A DNA stretch of 4,123 nucleotides. Source: a virus (lineage: Duplodnaviria; Heunggongvirae; Uroviricota; Caudoviricetes). Positions 1,525-4,121 of this stretch are shown here, in pieces. Location of the stretch: the IMG/VR virus record IMGVR_UViG_3300014970_000029; one strand, written 5' to 3'. The position numbers were made by a program, and so were the translations under genes. The notes below the pieces were generated by a model, which was given only the letters and a program-made list of their open reading frames with translations, was not told the origin of the DNA and did not search any database. The number at the start of each line of letters is the position of its first letter. The stretch's first letter is position 1.

Positions 1525-1713
1525 TTAGTTGATTGTTATCTCTGACTTCATACTCCTGCTCCTGTCAGGGTTTTGGCGTAACTCTTCAGTATTCGGTACC
1601 TTTGCTTTGTTGTGAAGCCACTTATAGACGGCCTGCTGTGAAACTTCGCAAGCAGCGCCCAGTTTCTTTTGTGAACCAACGATATTGATCGCTGTTTTGA
1701 TAGCTGGGTTCAT
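1525..1713 (-). CDS. cro: Cro-like small HTH DNA-binding protein (Cro / YdaS-type), 62 aa.
   Basis: Seen in sequence: ATG at 1713 with GGAGG 5 nt upstream on the minus strand (plus-strand cctcc 1720-1724). Protein MNPAIKTAINIVGSQKKLGAACEVSQQAVYKWL... carries the G-[ST]-Q...LA...VS..AV..W helix-turn-helix pattern of P22 Cro / YdaS-type proteins (established family pattern, from memory). Divergent from a CI-like repressor across an operator-containing spacer. Confidence 0.7.
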   Translation of the reverse strand: MNPAIKTAINIVGSQKKLGAACEVSQQAVYKWLHNKAKVPNTEELRQNPDRSRSMKSEITIN

Positions 1714-1740
1714 AACAACCTCCGTGGTTAATTTGAATCA

Positions 1741-1769
1741 AGATTAAAACTATGGTTGTTTTTAGTCAA
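1741..1769 (-). promoter_or_regulatory. PR-like sigma70 promoter driving cro (and probably Q) leftward.
   Basis: Seen in sequence (minus-strand reading): -35 TTGACT (plus 1764-1769), 17-bp spacer, -10 TAATCT (plus 1741-1746). The predicted start leaves a ~20-nt leader with the GGAGG SD before the cro ATG. The palindromic operator overlaps the -35 and spacer. Not experimentally supported. Confidence 0.5.
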
Positions 1770-1776
1770 CAACCAT
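1752..1776. promoter_or_regulatory. Operator (OR-like): perfect 9-bp inverted repeat with 7-bp spacer, ATGGTTGTT-tttagtc-AACAACCAT.
   Basis: Seen in sequence: arms at 1752-1760 and 1768-1776 are exact reverse complements. Related half-sites occur at 1714-1720 (AACAACC) and 1801-1807 (GGTTGTA). The location between divergent repressor and cro genes is the canonical operator position. Confidence 0.6.
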
Positions 1777-1782
1777 TTTCGT

Positions 1783-1811
1783 TTGATGAAATAAAACCTT
1801 GGTTGTACATT
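1783..1811 (+). promoter_or_regulatory. PRM-like promoter candidate for leaderless cI transcription.
   Basis: Seen in sequence: -35 TTGATG (1783-1788), 17-bp spacer, -10 TACATT (1806-1811), placing a start at or near the cI ATG (1818). There is no SD before 1818, which fits a leaderless mRNA as in lambda cI (established for lambda; inference here). Weak hexamers, so speculative. Confidence 0.3.
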
Positions 1812-1817
1812 TGGACT

Positions 1818-2507
1818 ATGAAAACAACACTCTCAGAAAGACTTAAAGAAGCCAGATTAGCGCGAGGCCTTACACAAAAGGCGCTTGGGGATTTGGTCGG
1901 GGTTAGCCAGGCTGCTATTCAGAAAATCGAAACAGGGAAAGCTAATCAAACAACTAAAATCGTGGAGATCGCGAACGCTTTGGGTGTGCGCGCAGAATGG
2001 TTATCTTCTGGCGTTGGAAATATGTCAGACAGTACAGTGCAACCAATACAATCAACTGTCAGCCATTCCAAATACTTCAAGATTGACGTTCTTGATATAG
2101 AAGTCAGTGCTGGGCCGGGAGTCATAAACCGTGAGTTTGTAGAAGTTCTACGCTCGGTTGAGTACTCGTTTGACGATGCTCGTCACATGTTCGATGGTAG
2201 GAAGGCGGAAAATATCCGCATCATTAACGTGCGTGGTGACAGCATGTCAGGAACGATCGAACCAGGTGATCTGCTGTTCGTTGATATCACGGTTAAATCT
2301 TTCGACGGTGATGGTATCTATGCGTTTCTGTACGACGACACAGCCCATGTAAAGCGCCTGCAAATGATGAAGGATAAGCTGCTGGTTATCTCTGATAACA
2401 AGAGCTACTCACCGTGGGACCCGATCGAGAAAGACGAGATGAACCGGGTGTTCATATTCGGTAAGGTTATTGGGAGCATGCCCCAGACGTACAGGAAACA
2501 TGGATAA
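1818..2507 (+). CDS. cI: CI-type prophage repressor: N-terminal XRE-family HTH plus C-terminal S24 (LexA-like) autopeptidase domain, 229 aa. The ORF track's longer form starts at 1752.
   Basis: Seen in sequence: MKTTLSERLKEARLARGLTQKALGDLVGVSQAAIQKIETGKANQ... is a classic HTH_XRE. Ala98-Gly99 (gct ggg, 2109-2114) is a candidate self-cleavage site; the C-terminal domain has the GDSM serine motif and HVKRL lysine, as in LexA / lambda CI (established knowledge). Start 1818 is preferred because the upstream ATG at 1752 sits inside the operator palindrome and its 22-aa extension has no HTH character. Confidence 0.9.
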   Translation: MKTTLSERLKEARLARGLTQKALGDLVGVSQAAIQKIETGKANQTTKIVEIANALGVRAEWLSSGVGNMSDSTVQPIQSTVSHSKYFKIDVLDIEVSAGPGVINREFVEVLRSVEYSFDDARHMFDGRKAENIRIINVRGDSMSGTIEPGDLLFVDITVKSFDGDGIYAFLYDDTAHVKRLQMMKDKLLVISDNKSYSPWDPIEKDEMNRVFIFGKVIGSMPQTYRKHG

Positions 2508-2573
2508 TCAGTACTGTGCTGATGAGTCGTTTAGGGGATAGTAAATTTAATTAGAATTAGACGAGAGCGATTT

Positions 2574-3437
2574 ATGGATTGTGACGCTTTACAGGATATA
2601 AAAATCTCTCTTAGGTATGACGGAAAAGATGCTTTAAATCATGAAATAGATTTGAACTGCCTAGGAGAATCCCTAAAGGGTTTTTCTAAAGTTCTCTCAA
2701 CAGCAGCTTCTTTCTCTGTTACACAAAAATATAGTAAATACATTAATTATCAGGAAGTTAAGGTTTACGCACGCGAAGCAAAAGCTAACTGCTTTACTCT
2801 TGAAGCAGTTCTTAACTTCGCCACTCAGAACCAGTTGTTCTCGGGGATCGCCGCAACTATACTTGGCGCAATACTACAATATATTTTTGCGAGAAATTCT
2901 AACAAGAAAGATGAAATGAAAGCTTTGCAGCAGTCACTTGAAAAGGCCATAGAGGCACTAGGAAACAAGGATGCTGGAACCATTGATAAGTTGATCTCTT
3001 TGATTGACCGAATGGCTGTAGAGCTTCGCCCCTCTGTAAGGCAGGCAGTATCACCTATTGGTAATACTTGCGATCAGATAAGTGTTGCAACAAATGTTGA
3101 CGGCTGCCTTCTAAAAGTTAACGAGAGAGATAAAGCTGAAATTGATAGGCTTGATGATGATGAAGTTCTCGGTCTTCGTGAGTATCGTGCTTTTCTTACA
3201 GAATTTGATGCACAAAATATGACAGCTAAAATAATTTTAGATGGTGATGACTCAAAAAAGAGAATCACTGCTGAAATTAGCGATCCAGCTGCAGGAAAGA
3301 AGAATAACCCGTATATTAGAGCTCTTAGTGCATATATATCAACCAAAGGTGATCCATCTGCAGTATTCACTATAACCGCAAAGGCTACTGTTAAAAAAGG
3401 CCAGATAAACAGGTTATTTATTGTAGATGCGAAATGA
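2574..3437 (+). CDS. Uncharacterized 287-aa protein in the cI-downstream (rexAB-equivalent) slot. Candidate prophage accessory / phage-exclusion gene. No family recognised.
   Basis: Seen in sequence: long ORF with ATG 2574, a weak-to-moderate SD-like AGAG ~8 nt upstream, TGA at 3435-3437, immediately followed by an intrinsic terminator. Same strand as cI with a 66-bp gap and no hairpin terminator, so likely co-transcribed. Visibly AT-rich relative to its neighbours. One ~19-residue hydrophobic segment (about residues 88-106, [19 protein letters not shown]) and a charged helical-looking segment ([41 protein letters not shown]). The only competing ORF here is an antisense, low-complexity one. 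Confidence 0.75.
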
Positions 3438-3441
3438 TTTC

Positions 3442-3468
3442 CCCGGCCGTCGTGCCGGGTTTTCTTTT
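3442..3468 (+). terminator. Rho-independent terminator ending the cI / 287-aa ORF transcription unit.
   Basis: Seen in sequence: stem CCCGGC (3442-3447) / GCCGGG (3454-3459), 6-nt loop cgtcgt, then TTTTCTTTT (3460-3468), starting 5 bp after the stop codon. Confidence 0.7.
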
Positions 3469-3560
3469 GCCTCCCCTCATCACACAAACCGTTCAAAAAA
3501 CCACCACGACCTCGCTTCAGTTATCGCTGTGCGATGCAAGTCACAAAATAAATCCATCCT

Positions 3561-3660
3561 AAATACAACCAGTTATATCTAAAACAACCAATAAAACAAC
3601 TTTTGTTGTTGACGATAAAACAACTATAGTTTTAAATAAGTTCATCGCAACAACACAACG
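3561..3660. promoter_or_regulatory. OL-like operator/promoter region: cluster of AACAAC / GTTGTT motifs sharing the OR half-site, with promoter-like hexamers.
   Basis: Seen in sequence: TACAACC 3564-3570 (reverse complement of GGTTGTA at 1801-1807); AAAACAAC at 3581-3588, 3593-3600 and 3617-3624; AACAACCAAT 3583-3592 resembles the OR arm AACAACCAT; inverted pair AACAAC-tttt-GTTGTT 3595-3610; 10-bp perfect palindrome AACTATAGTT 3622-3631; CAACAACACAAC 3648-3659. Plus-strand -35-like TTGACG 3609-3614 with TTAAAT 3632-3637 after a 17-bp spacer. Direction and exact operator boundaries are unresolved. Confidence 0.35.
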
Positions 3661-3693
3661 ATACGGCAACTACCTGATTCACCGTTGCGATGA
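3642..3693. repeat. 10-bp perfect inverted repeat TCATCGCAAC ... GTTGCGATGA separated by 32 nt.
   Basis: Seen in sequence: arms at 3642-3651 and 3684-3693 are exact reverse complements. Could form a stem-loop in a leader RNA or be a protein-binding site. Confidence 0.3.
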
Positions 3694-3830
3694 CCGCTTA
3701 GATCCGCAGTTTGAATTTCAGCAGGCTTCGGGGAGTGCGAGGGGTGAAACGGACGCGTGAACGTCGGTGTGACCAGCTGAAATTAACTCAACATTTCATA
3801 CCTTAGTCGCTTCAACGAGGCGGCTTAGTT

Positions 3831-4121
3831 ATGACAACCGGCGGCCATCCACCGCCTGAATACGCGCAGAAGTCTCTATATGTTCAGCAGCCCAGCTTAC
3901 GGGCAGGAGTTTTTATGGTTCATCAACATTATGGAACGCAGACCGTTAATCGAGGTGCGGTCATGCCAGGAATGCTGGTCAAACACAAAGATGGTACCTG
4001 GACTGCATCAGCTAATTTACGCGGACGGCTTTATCTGCATCGCGGCATCGAGCGCACTTATACCCGTGATTTGCTCGTGGAAGTTTTTCTCGACGGACGC
4101 GGTAACGGCCTGAATCACTAA
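3831..4121 (+). CDS. Hypothetical protein, 96 aa, GC-rich. Function unknown.
   Basis: Seen in sequence: ATG at 3831 with GAGG 10 nt upstream and TAA at 4119-4121. I checked the minus strand by eye here and all three frames are interrupted by stops, so no competing antisense gene. No recognisable motif; not arginine-rich, so not an obvious N-type antiterminator. The overlapping alternative-frame ORF 3880-4113 is Cys/Trp-rich and less protein-like. Confidence 0.4.
   Translation: MTTGGHPPPEYAQKSLYVQQPSLRAGVFMVHQHYGTQTVNRGAVMPGMLVKHKDGTWTASANLRGRLYLHRGIERTYTRDLLVEVFLDGRGNGLNH

What the first reader, a model, noticed from the sequence alone, without database searches (positions are those of the whole stretch)
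3561..3660. Second cluster of the same GTTGTT/AACAAC half-site downstream of the 287-aa gene: a putative OL that brackets the cI-X module
Seen in sequence: at least five AACAAC-containing motifs within 100 bp, one matching the OR arm over 9 of 10 positions (AACAACCAAT versus AACAACCAT) and one exact reverse complement of the OR-proximal GGTTGTA half-site. There is also an inverted pair AACAAC-tttt-GTTGTT, a perfect palindrome AACTATAGTT and promoter-like hexamers on both strands. Inference: this is the left operator/promoter of the immunity region, so the unknown gene lies inside the repressor-controlled unit exactly as rexAB does in lambda. The spacing of the inverted pair differs from the OR palindrome, so it may not bind the same dimer geometry; direct repeats might instead bind a different regulator.
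Basis: partly seen in the sequence, partly recalled or inferred. Interest (0 to 1): 0.5.

Follow-up and report, generated by a model that had tools for sequence, protein, structure and literature searches.

The report
Left operator-promoter of a lambdoid prophage
The motif cluster is most likely the ordinary left operator and early promoter (OL/pL) of a common but uncharacterised E. coli lambda-like prophage: it carries the same 14-bp repressor sites as the right operator and would keep kil and the recombination genes off during lysogeny.

Summary
The window is a defective lambdoid prophage at the E. coli DLP12 site.

ACAAC/GTTGT occurs 7 times in 3561-3660, against 1.1 in shuffles. In 178 kb of the same genome only OR and OL reach that density.

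The real operator is a 14-bp palindrome, ACAAC-N4-GTTGT, like the phage 434 operator. The CI N-terminal domain's closest solved relative is the 434 repressor. Sites:
- OL2: 3596-3609, 10 of 10 specified positions.
- OL1: 3620-3633, which matches the reverse complement of OR1 at 13 of 14.
- OL3 candidate: 3565-3578, half-consensus only.

The -35 hexamer TTGACG (3609-3614) overlaps OL2. The -10 is A/T-rich and non-consensus (3632-3638). The predicted start is A3644, reading toward kil.

In 32 loci from 15 genera with the same recognition helix, the OL2/OL1 pair recurs 0.13-2.5 kb beyond cI. Phages with an identical CI C-terminal domain but another helix-turn-helix differ from the window only in a gap-free 95-bp island (3550-3644). 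That island carries their own OR motif.

The ACAAC copies at 3650 and 3655 belong to the shared leader, not the operator. This is a new member of a known kind and of low interest.

The parts
1818..2507 (+). cI repressor, 229 aa: an N-terminal HTH domain related to the 434 repressor, and an S24 (LexA-like) C-terminal domain.
   Evidence: Pfam HTH_3 and Peptidase_S24. The best solved relative of residues 5-68 is the 434 repressor, E 4.5e-9. RefSeq calls it an S24 family peptidase.
1746..1759 (.). OR1, AAAACTATGGTTGT. It lies in the spacer of pR, which is TTGACT 1769-1764 and TAATCT 1746-1741 on the - strand.
   Evidence: 9 of 10 to ACAAC-N4-GTTGT. It sits at -72 from the cI start in 17 of the 32 loci scanned (-75 to -69 in 6 more).
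1769..1782 (.). OR2, ACAACCATTTTCGT: consensus left half, weak right half. Its centre is 42.5 bp upstream of the cI ATG.
   Evidence: Conserved as A(C/A)AAC(C/T)AT(A/T)TTCGT across genera. It is 23 bp from OR1 and 24 bp from OR3.
1793..1806 (.). OR3, AAAACCTTGGTTGT. It touches the -10 of the putative pRM, which is TTGATG 1783-1788, 17 bp, TACATT 1806-1811. The cI ATG is at 1818, so the cI mRNA would be leaderless.
   Evidence: At -25 in 27 of the 32 loci (-28 to -22 in the other 5), often a perfect ACAACC-NN-GGTTGT.
2574..3437 (+). 287-aa DUF7946/DUF7947 gene, the cargo in the rexAB position.
   Evidence: Pfam hits. The slot holds other cargo in relatives.
3442..3467 (+). Intrinsic terminator that ends the cI-cargo unit.
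   Evidence: Terminator scan. It is kept in phages with other cargo or no cargo, and with other immunity.
3550..3644 (+). Immunity-specific OL/pL cassette.
   Evidence: This is the only stretch of 3438-3720 that differs between the window and heteroimmune phage 4A7. It has the same length in both, with no gaps.
3565..3578 (.). OL3 candidate, ACAACCAGTTATAT: consensus left half only. A further half-site ACAACC lies at 3584-3589.
   Evidence: A half-site 31 bp upstream of OL2 recurs in 8 representative loci. Others lie at -12, -21/-22 and -42.
3596..3609 (.). OL2, ACAACTTTTGTTGT, matching 10 of 10 specified positions.
   Evidence: It is paired with OL1 at 24 bp (23 bp in one locus) in the 15 loci where both sites reach 9 of 10.
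3609..3614 (+). pL -35 hexamer, TTGACG. Its first base overlaps OL2.
   Evidence: TTGAC is kept in 31 of 32 loci, even where OL2 is degenerate. It is in register with TTGATA of 4A7.
3620..3633 (.). OL1, ACAACTATAGTTTT, in the pL spacer.
   Evidence: 13 of 14 identical to the reverse complement of OR1 (I2, 67). Present in all 32 loci.
3632..3638 (+). pL -10 region: TTAAAT at 17 bp, or TAAATA at 18 bp.
   Evidence: TT(A/T)AAT is conserved. It is in register with the TATTAT -10 of 4A7. It was not picked up by the consensus scan.
3644..3644 (+). Predicted pL transcription start, the A of a conserved CAT.
   Evidence: CAT is conserved 6-8 bp after the -10. The cassette boundary with 4A7 falls here. 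This is an inference.
3645..3830 (+). pL leader shared with heteroimmune phages. It contains the ACAAC copies at 3650 and 3655.
   Evidence: Its fold is no better than shuffles.
3831..4121 (+). kil, the first gene downstream of pL. RefSeq starts it at 3915.
   Evidence: PHROG 294, Kil, E 1.2e-38. In the intact phages gam, bet and exo follow kil; in this prophage gam is an annotated partial pseudogene and bet and exo are absent.

Best explanation
Positions 3550-3644 are the left operator-promoter cassette (OL/pL) of the prophage's immunity region.

Dimers of the CI repressor encoded at 1818-2507 would bind two 14-bp palindromes of the form ACAAC-N4-GTTGT. These are OL2 (3596-3609) and OL1 (3620-3633), whose centres are 24 bp apart. 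OL2 touches the -35 hexamer TTGACG and OL1 fills the spacer, so bound CI would block RNA polymerase at pL.

When CI is lost, for example by RecA-stimulated self-cleavage of its S24 domain, pL would fire rightward from about A3644. The transcript would run through a 186-nt leader into kil, which gam, bet and exo follow in intact relatives.

A half-consensus site 31 bp upstream (3565-3578) and an extra half-site (3584-3589) are candidates for a weak OL3. They could also support cooperative or looping contacts with OR.

The cI gene, the 287-aa cargo gene and their terminator (3442-3467) sit between OR and OL, as cI-rexA-rexB does in lambda.

Shown here: the motif, its significance, its conservation, its co-variation with the DNA-binding domain, and the gene order. 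Inferred: CI (and Cro) binding, promoter activity and the start site, and co-transcription of the cargo gene from pRM.
For: 1. Enrichment. There are 7 ACAAC/GTTGT in 100 bp, and 0 of 5000 shuffles reach that. In 178 kb of the same genome only OR and OL show such density, and all five non-coincidental matches of at least 9 of 10 to the 14-mer lie there.

2. Similarity to pR. OL read on the + strand aligns with OR read on the - strand: GTTGTTGAC(G/T)A..AAAACAAC(T/C)ATAGTTTTAA. A 19-nt stretch is 95% complementary, and OL1 matches the reverse complement of OR1 at 13 of 14.

3. Conservation. In 32 loci from 15 genera whose CI has the recognition helix (V/I/L)(S/T)QAAIQKIE, matches of at least 9 of 10 fall almost only in two regions. 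One is OR, around -72 and -25 (often also -103). The other is downstream of cI, where OL1 scores in every locus and OL2 also reaches 9 of 10 at 24 bp (23 bp once) in 15. TTGAC, TT(A/T)AAT and CAT are conserved around that pair.

4. Co-variation. Phage 4A7 CI is 100% identical to the window's CI from residue 86 on, but has another HTH. Its DNA matches the window throughout 3438-3720 except a gap-free island at 3550-3644. That island carries AATAGCAAT motifs matching its own OR, and a good promoter (TTGATA-17-TATTAT) in exact register. No class-B or HK022 locus has an ACAAC-N4-GTTGT match in its OR or OL.

5. The motif travels with cI, not with the downstream genes. A Klebsiella phage has the same OL next to RexAB and unrelated early genes.

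6. In 10 relatives a boxA (nutL-like CGCTCTTTAAC) lies 37-60 bp downstream of OL1 on the same strand (165 bp in an eleventh). This is the classical pL-nutL order.

7. The closest solved relative of the CI N-terminal domain is the 434 repressor. That protein binds 14-bp operators of the form ACAAT-N4-ATTGT, three each in OR and OL (PMC1636474).

8. Co-occurrence. The OL cassette is found in 1509 of 5426 complete E. coli genomes and the OR-plus-cI-NTD segment in 1521.
Against: - No binding, footprint or transcript data exist for this immunity type in the literature I could search.
- The -10 is non-consensus. TTAAAT lacks the A at the second position of the hexamer (-11) and TAAATA lacks the T at the last (-7). 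The generic promoter scan did not call a + strand promoter here, and it did call a - strand one, TTGCGA-16-TATAGT.
- Only two full operators are evident, not three.
- The upstream half-sites are direct repeats, not inverted repeats, so their role is unclear.
- This prophage copy has lost most of its early-right region, so the circuit may be a remnant.
Confidence: 0.86

Rival explanations
1. The cluster binds CI but has no rightward promoter. It would serve only as a distal operator for OL-OR looping, or it would drive a leftward transcript antisense to the 287-aa gene from TTGCGA(3650-3645)-16-TATAGT(3628-3623).
For: The consensus scan found only the - strand candidate, at 9 of 12. The + strand -10 is non-consensus.
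Against: - The - strand -35 lies in the leader, which is unrelated in other class-A loci, so it is not conserved with the operators.
- TTGAC on the + strand is kept in 31 of 32 loci.
- The cassette is in register with a good + strand promoter in 4A7.
- kil (with gam, bet and exo in intact relatives) or a boxA follow on the + strand.
Confidence: 0.05
2. The same-orientation AAAACAAC(C) repeats upstream of OL2 (3565-3589, plus the left halves of OL2 and OL1) are read by something other than a CI dimer. Candidates are Cro, a host nucleoid protein, or no protein at all. In the last case the phased A-tracts would act as curved, UP-like DNA that stimulates pL.
For: - Upstream half-sites all point the same way and sit at -12, -21/-22, -31/-32 and -42 from OL2, roughly one helical turn apart.
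- They have no inverted partner.
- They are A-tract rich.
Against: - They share the exact half-site that CI would read in OL1, OL2 and OR.
- OR2 is also a site with one consensus half.
- They vanish together with OL1 and OL2 in class-B cassettes, so they are immunity-specific and not a generic promoter feature.
- This reading adds to the OL model and does not replace it.
Confidence: 0.12
3. The cluster is a chance product of AT-rich intergenic composition, or is replication-type iterons, with no regulatory role.
For: The region is 28% GC and contains direct repeats with 12-bp and 24-bp spacing (D7).
Against: - 0 of 5000 composition-matched shuffles reach the observed count.
- AT-rich windows elsewhere in the genome hold at most 2 copies.
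- The inverted N4 spacing is invariant across 15 genera.
- The motif switches with the repressor's HTH.
Confidence: 0.01

Closest known systems
Phage 434 immunity region (434 repressor and Cro, with OR and OL)
   Same: - The CI N-terminal domain is homologous to the 434 repressor DNA-binding domain (E 4.5e-9).
- The operators are 14-bp two-fold symmetric sites with outer ACAA/TTGT and four central bases. 434 has ACAAT-N4-ATTGT, with three sites each in OR and OL (PMC1636474).
- The operators overlap divergent early promoters.
   Different: - Position 5 is C/G here (ACAAC...GTTGT).
- The recognition helix is SQAAIQK here, against TQQSIEQ in 434, so the specificity is not imm434.
- The C-terminal domain is of the HK022 type: 41% identity to HK022 CI across nearly the whole protein.
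- Only two full OL sites are seen.
Phage lambda OL/pL and the cI-rexA-rexB-OL layout
   Same: - The order is the same: OR, cI, a lysogeny-expressed cargo gene, a terminator, then OL/pL reading away from cI.
- Adjacent operators are spaced 23-24 bp centre to centre.
- OR2 is centred about 42 bp upstream of a probably leaderless cI start (the lambda values are from my own knowledge).
- The region between cI and N is a known mosaic hotspot that holds rexAB in lambda and bstA in BTP1 (PMC8585504).
   Different: - Operators are 14 bp here, not 17 bp, and the sequences are unrelated.
- There is no N gene and no boxA in the leader. pL runs straight into kil.
- The cargo is a DUF7946/DUF7947 protein.
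HK022-type CI repressors (class B here: phages 4A7, S149 and Fraca, and an O55:H7 prophage)
   Same: - The S24 C-terminal domain is identical or near-identical.
- The flanks around OL are the same, and the promoter register is the same.
   Different: - The HTH is different (VAQPTIWRLTSG).
- The operator motif is different (AATAGCAAT type) at both OR and OL.

Membership tests
Lambdoid left operator-promoter (OL/pL) | It lies beyond cI (and any cI-linked cargo and terminator) and faces away from cI toward the early-left genes. | tested here: met
   The order is cI 1818-2507, cargo 2574-3437, terminator 3442-3467, cluster, kil. In intact relatives gam, bet and exo follow kil; here gam is a partial pseudogene and bet and exo are absent.
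Lambdoid left operator-promoter (OL/pL) | It carries several copies of the same operator sequence as OR. | tested here: met
   OL2 matches 10 of 10 and OL1 9 of 10 to ACAAC-N4-GTTGT. OL1 matches the reverse complement of OR1 at 13 of 14.
Lambdoid left operator-promoter (OL/pL) | The operator sequence changes together with the repressor's DNA-binding domain (immunity specificity). | tested here: met
   Class-A and class-B CI share a C-terminal domain but differ in the HTH. OL differs only in the 95-bp island 3550-3644, which carries each class's own OR motif.
Lambdoid left operator-promoter (OL/pL) | The operators overlap a sigma-70 promoter. | tested here: inconclusive
   The -35 TTGACG is conserved and overlapped by OL2. 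The -10 (TTAAAT or TAAATA) is non-consensus and was not called by the scan.
Lambdoid left operator-promoter (OL/pL) | Three operators (OL1 to OL3). | tested here: inconclusive
   There are two full sites. The third is only a half-consensus site 31 bp upstream, although that spacing recurs in 8 representative loci.
Lambdoid left operator-promoter (OL/pL) | Repressor and Cro physically bind it and repress transcription. | not testable with these tools
   This needs EMSA or footprinting and reporter assays. No published data were found.
434-type repressor-operator system | The HTH domain is homologous to the 434 repressor. | tested here: met
   PDB 1per and 1r69, E 4.5e-9, residues 5-68.
434-type repressor-operator system | The operator is a 14-bp symmetric site with outer ACAA...TTGT. 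| tested here: met
   ACAAC-N4-GTTGT is the same as ACAA-N6-TTGT. The 434 reference site is ACAATNNNNATTGT.
434-type repressor-operator system | Same immunity specificity as 434. | tested here: not met
   The recognition helix differs at 4 of 7 positions, and the operator differs at position 5.
Direct-repeat operators (P2 C type) or iterons | The sites are direct repeats with no inverted partner. | tested here: not met
   The conserved core units are inverted pairs with an invariant N4 spacing. Direct repeats occur only as the extra upstream half-sites.

The most novel reading that the evidence does not exclude
OL may be more than a pair of classical operators. It could include a ramp of same-orientation half-sites, phased about one helical turn apart upstream of OL2, that loads extra CI subunits or pre-bends the DNA for an OL-OR loop.

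Separately, two immunity classes share a 100% identical CI C-terminal domain. CI from co-resident heteroimmune prophages could therefore form mixed dimers or mixed cooperative assemblies. That would couple, or poison, two otherwise independent lysogeny switches.
Probability: 0.1. Interest if true: 0.55.

Novelty: new member of a known kind. Interest (0 to 1): 0.25.

Why it matters
The result defines the operator code (ACAAC-N4-GTTGT), the pL/OL cassette and the immunity boundaries of an immunity type carried by about 28% of complete E. coli genomes. That type also occurs in 15 genera of Enterobacterales (Escherichia included), and the cassette is unannotated in RefSeq.

It also fixes the cI-to-OL interval as a cargo slot inside the immunity region. 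That slot holds DUF7946/DUF7947, a HipA-like pair, SIR2, RexAB or nothing. This is useful for annotating prophages, predicting heteroimmunity and looking for lysogeny-expressed defence genes.

The biology itself is textbook lambdoid regulation.

Tried and rejected
- A 17-bp lambda-style operator model (AAAAC-N7-GTTTT) fitted the E. coli copy. I dropped it when other genera showed that only the N4 pairing is conserved.
- The 25-bp OR palindrome as a single site was rejected. Its spacing differs between OR (N9 between pentamers) and OL (N10), while N4 never varies.
- Rfam gave nothing relevant in the window.
- I tested whether the N-less leader 3645-3830 is a put-like antiterminator RNA. It has no similarity to the HK022 pL-putL region, and its fold is no better than shuffles (z = -0.79).
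- Literature searches for the operator strings, for DUF7946 and for the PhiR phages found no characterisation of this immunity type.
- The leftward promoter candidate was rejected for lack of conservation.

Full report
**What the window is.** The 4123 bases are 100% identical to E. coli strain 2017.11.01CC (NZ_AP025220.2). They lie in a lambdoid prophage next to intD and tRNA-Arg, which is the DLP12 site. The gene order in the window is:
- a phage porin gene (1-889, +);
- quuD, a Q antiterminator (1079-1462, -);
- a cro-like gene (1525-1713, -);
- cI (1818-2507, +; HTH_3 plus Peptidase_S24);
- a 287-aa DUF7946/DUF7947 gene (2574-3437, +);
- an intrinsic terminator (3442-3467);
- a 360-bp intergenic stretch that contains the finding;
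- kil (3831 or 3915 to 4121; PHROG 294).

In the intact phages gam, bet and exo follow kil. In this prophage gam is an annotated partial pseudogene and bet and exo are absent. Homology to intact phages breaks at about 1597, so this copy has lost cII-O-P-nin and is defective. The immunity region itself is the same as in the phages PhiR34_1, PhiR5_1 and PhiR26_1. Phages of that PhiR series are used as a plaque-forming panel of lambda relatives (10.1101/2025.11.03.685801).

**Checking the observation.** ACAAC/GTTGT occurs 7 times in 3561-3660. Dinucleotide-preserving shuffles of the same 100 bp give a mean of 1.1 and a maximum of 5, so 0 of 5000 reach 7. In the 28-kb prophage locus only two places have 4 or more per 100 bp, namely OR and this cluster. 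In 150 kb taken from three other parts of the same chromosome, the 4,468 windows with GC at most 35% never hold more than 2.

**What the operator really is.** Read on the + strand, the cluster aligns with OR read on the - strand. The shared sequence is GTTGTTGAC(G/T)A..AAAACAAC(T/C)ATAGTTTTAA, including a 19-nt stretch that is 95% complementary.

To find the true site geometry I collected loci encoding relatives of the CI N-terminal domain from one genome per species. Thirty of them have the recognition helix (V/I/L)(S/T)QAAIQKIE. They come from Kosakonia, Enterobacter, Pectobacterium, Samsonia, Brenneria, Klebsiella, Izhakiella, Symbiopectobacterium, Pantoea, Erwinia, Providencia, Serratia, Morganella, Enterobacillus, Photorhabdus and Xenorhabdus.

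Their OR regions show that the conserved unit is a 14-bp palindrome, ACAAC-N4-GTTGT. An example is ACAACCTAGGTTGT next to the cI start. In the window the sites are as follows.

| Site | Coordinates | Sequence |
|---|---|---|
| OR1 | 1746-1759 | AAAACTATGGTTGT |
| OR2 | 1769-1782 | ACAACCATTTTCGT (weak right half) |
| OR3 | 1793-1806 | AAAACCTTGGTTGT |
| OL2 | 3596-3609 | ACAACTTTTGTTGT (10 of 10) |
| OL1 | 3620-3633 | ACAACTATAGTTTT (13 of 14 to the reverse complement of OR1) |

Centre-to-centre spacings are 23 and 24 bp in OR and 24 bp in OL.

The closest solved relative of the CI N-terminal domain is the 434 repressor (E 4.5e-9). That protein binds 14-bp sites of the form ACAAT-N4-ATTGT, three in OR and three in OL (PMC1636474). 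The geometry therefore has direct precedent. The specificity is different, because both position 5 of the operator and the recognition helix differ.

**Conservation.** I scanned the 32 class-A loci (about 240 kb) for matches of at least 9 of 10 to ACAACNNNNGTTGT. The hits fall in these places:
- around -72 (23 loci, -75 to -69) and -25 (all 32, -28 to -22) relative to the cI start, which are OR1 and OR3;
- often at -103, over the cro ribosome-binding site;
- downstream of cI, where OL1 scores in every locus and OL2 also reaches 9 of 10 at 24 bp (23 bp in one locus) in 15;
- at +132 inside cI in the 13 Pectobacterium, Samsonia and related loci, a conserved coding match;
- about ten scattered singletons, close to the roughly 7 expected by chance.

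The distance from the cI stop codon to OL2 ranges from 134 to 2537 bp, so the cI-to-OL interval is a variable cargo slot.

Around the OL pair three further elements are conserved. TTGAC(A/T/G) starts on the last base of OL2, even in Pectobacterium where OL2 is degenerate. TT(A/T)AAT lies just after OL1. A CAT lies 6-8 bp further on. This gives pL as TTGACG (3609-3614), then 17 bp, then TTAAAT (3632-3637), or alternatively TAAATA at 18 bp, with a predicted start at A3644. The -10 is not consensus and the generic scan missed it. This is the weakest link in the model.

**Co-variation with the repressor.** Phage 4A7 and an O55:H7 prophage carry a CI that is 81% identical overall. It is 100% identical from residue 86 on, but has another HTH (VAQPTIWRLTSG against VSQAAIQKIETG). 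Salmonella phage S149 (75%) and phage Fraca (67%) have that same HTH and a near-identical C-terminal domain.

Aligned with 4A7, window 3438-3720 is nearly identical apart from one gap-free island of 95 bp, 3550-3644. Inside the island 4A7 has AATAGCAAT-type motifs that match its own OR. It also has a good promoter, TTGATA-17-TATTAT, in exact register with the window's TTGACG-17-TTAAAT. The island ends at the predicted start site.

No class-B locus, and not HK022 either, has an ACAAC-N4-GTTGT match in its OR or OL; the only 9-of-10 match in those loci is a singleton 2.5 kb downstream of cI in Fraca. In the opposite direction, Klebsiella phage ST101-KPC2phi6.1 has a class-A CI, the same OR, and the same OL2/OL1/pL core. 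There the core sits next to RexA and RexB and unrelated downstream genes.

So the cluster travels with the DNA-binding domain, not with its neighbours. In complete E. coli genomes the OL cassette occurs in 1509 of 5426 and the OR-plus-cI-NTD segment in 1521. The cassette is never annotated.

**Direction and downstream context.** In 10 of the 32 relatives a boxA sequence (CGCTCTTTAAC) lies 37-60 bp downstream of OL1 on the same strand, and 165 bp downstream in an eleventh. It is usually the only boxA in the locus. This is the classical pL-nutL order. S149 has a P22-type boxA, boxB and gene 24 there.

The E. coli version has no N gene and no boxA. Its 186-nt leader is shared with heteroimmune phages and runs into kil. 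The ACAAC copies at 3650 and 3655 sit in this shared leader and are not operator sequence. The - strand promoter candidate (TTGCGA-16-TATAGT) has its -35 in the leader and is not conserved among class-A loci.

**Mechanism proposed.** CI dimers would occupy OL1 and OL2 cooperatively and so occlude the -35 and spacer of pL. Loss of CI would release rightward transcription of kil and, in intact relatives, gam, bet and exo.

At OR, OR1 fills the pR spacer (TTGACT-17-TAATCT on the - strand). OR2 is centred 42.5 bp upstream of the cI ATG. That ATG lies 7 bp after a TACATT -10, so the cI mRNA is probably leaderless. OR3 touches that -10. This layout is very close to lambda's; the lambda values are from my own knowledge.

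The 287-aa gene lies between cI and the terminator with no terminator in between. Co-transcription from pRM is plausible but unproven. The slot is a known mosaic hotspot that holds rexAB in lambda and bstA in BTP1 (PMC8585504).

**What remains open.**
- Whether OL has a third site is unresolved. A half-consensus site, ACAACCAGTTATAT (3565-3578), lies 31 bp upstream of OL2. A half-site at that offset recurs in 8 representative loci, and further same-orientation half-sites lie at -12, -21/-22 and -42.
- The exact -10 and the start site are not settled.
- Binding by CI and Cro has not been shown.

**Verdict.** It needs three corrections: the operator geometry, the promoter direction, and the status of two of the motifs. 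This is a new member of a known kind: a 434-like operator system in a lambda-like layout, previously undescribed but common. Interest is low (0.25).

Noticed in passing
window 1590-1600: Homology to intact phages breaks at about 1597. The 5' part of cro is fused to DNA next to quuD, and cII, O, P, ren and the nin region are missing. This prophage copy is therefore defective but keeps cI, OR, OL and kil.
   Followed up: partly
window 1818-2507 compared with L004 1307-1996: The CI of the window and the CI of phage 4A7 are 100% identical from residue 86 on, but have different HTH domains. This is a natural swap of the DNA-binding domain. Mixed dimers could form in double lysogens.
   Followed up: partly
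window 1715-1728: An operator-like 14-mer, ACAACCTCCGTGGT, lies over the cro Shine-Dalgarno sequence, 31 bp from OR1. It scores at least 9 of 10 in 14 of the 32 loci across several genera. It could be a fourth site, or a coincidence of the ribosome-binding site and start context.
   Followed up: no
window 3545-3553: An AAAATAAAT motif upstream of OL is kept in class-A loci of many genera, in class-B phages, and directly after the cI stop codon in HK022. Its function is unknown.
   Followed up: no
window 2508-3441; L002, L003, L005, L006: The interval between cI and the terminator is a cargo slot. It holds the DUF7946/DUF7947 protein here (weak PADLOC candidate PDC-S42, E 1.5e-4), a HipA-like pair in PhiR5_1, SIR2 in an O55:H7 prophage, RexAB in a Klebsiella phage, and nothing in PhiR34_1.
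   Followed up: partly
window 3645-3830: The pL leader has no N gene and no boxA, yet it is about 96% conserved among heteroimmune E. coli phages. It contains a possible hairpin, ATCGCAAC...GTTGCGAT (3644-3691), and another hairpin just before the kil ATG. Its overall fold is no better than shuffles, and it shows no similarity to HK022 putL.
   Followed up: partly
window 3831-4121: The kil start is annotated differently. Phage records start it at 3831 (96 aa) and RefSeq at 3915 (68 aa).
   Followed up: no
L005 3249-3452 and L007 5467-5670: In the Klebsiella phage and in Salmonella phage S149, a small gene on the - strand (about 67 aa) sits between the cI-operon terminator and OL. It is absent from the window.
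   Followed up: no
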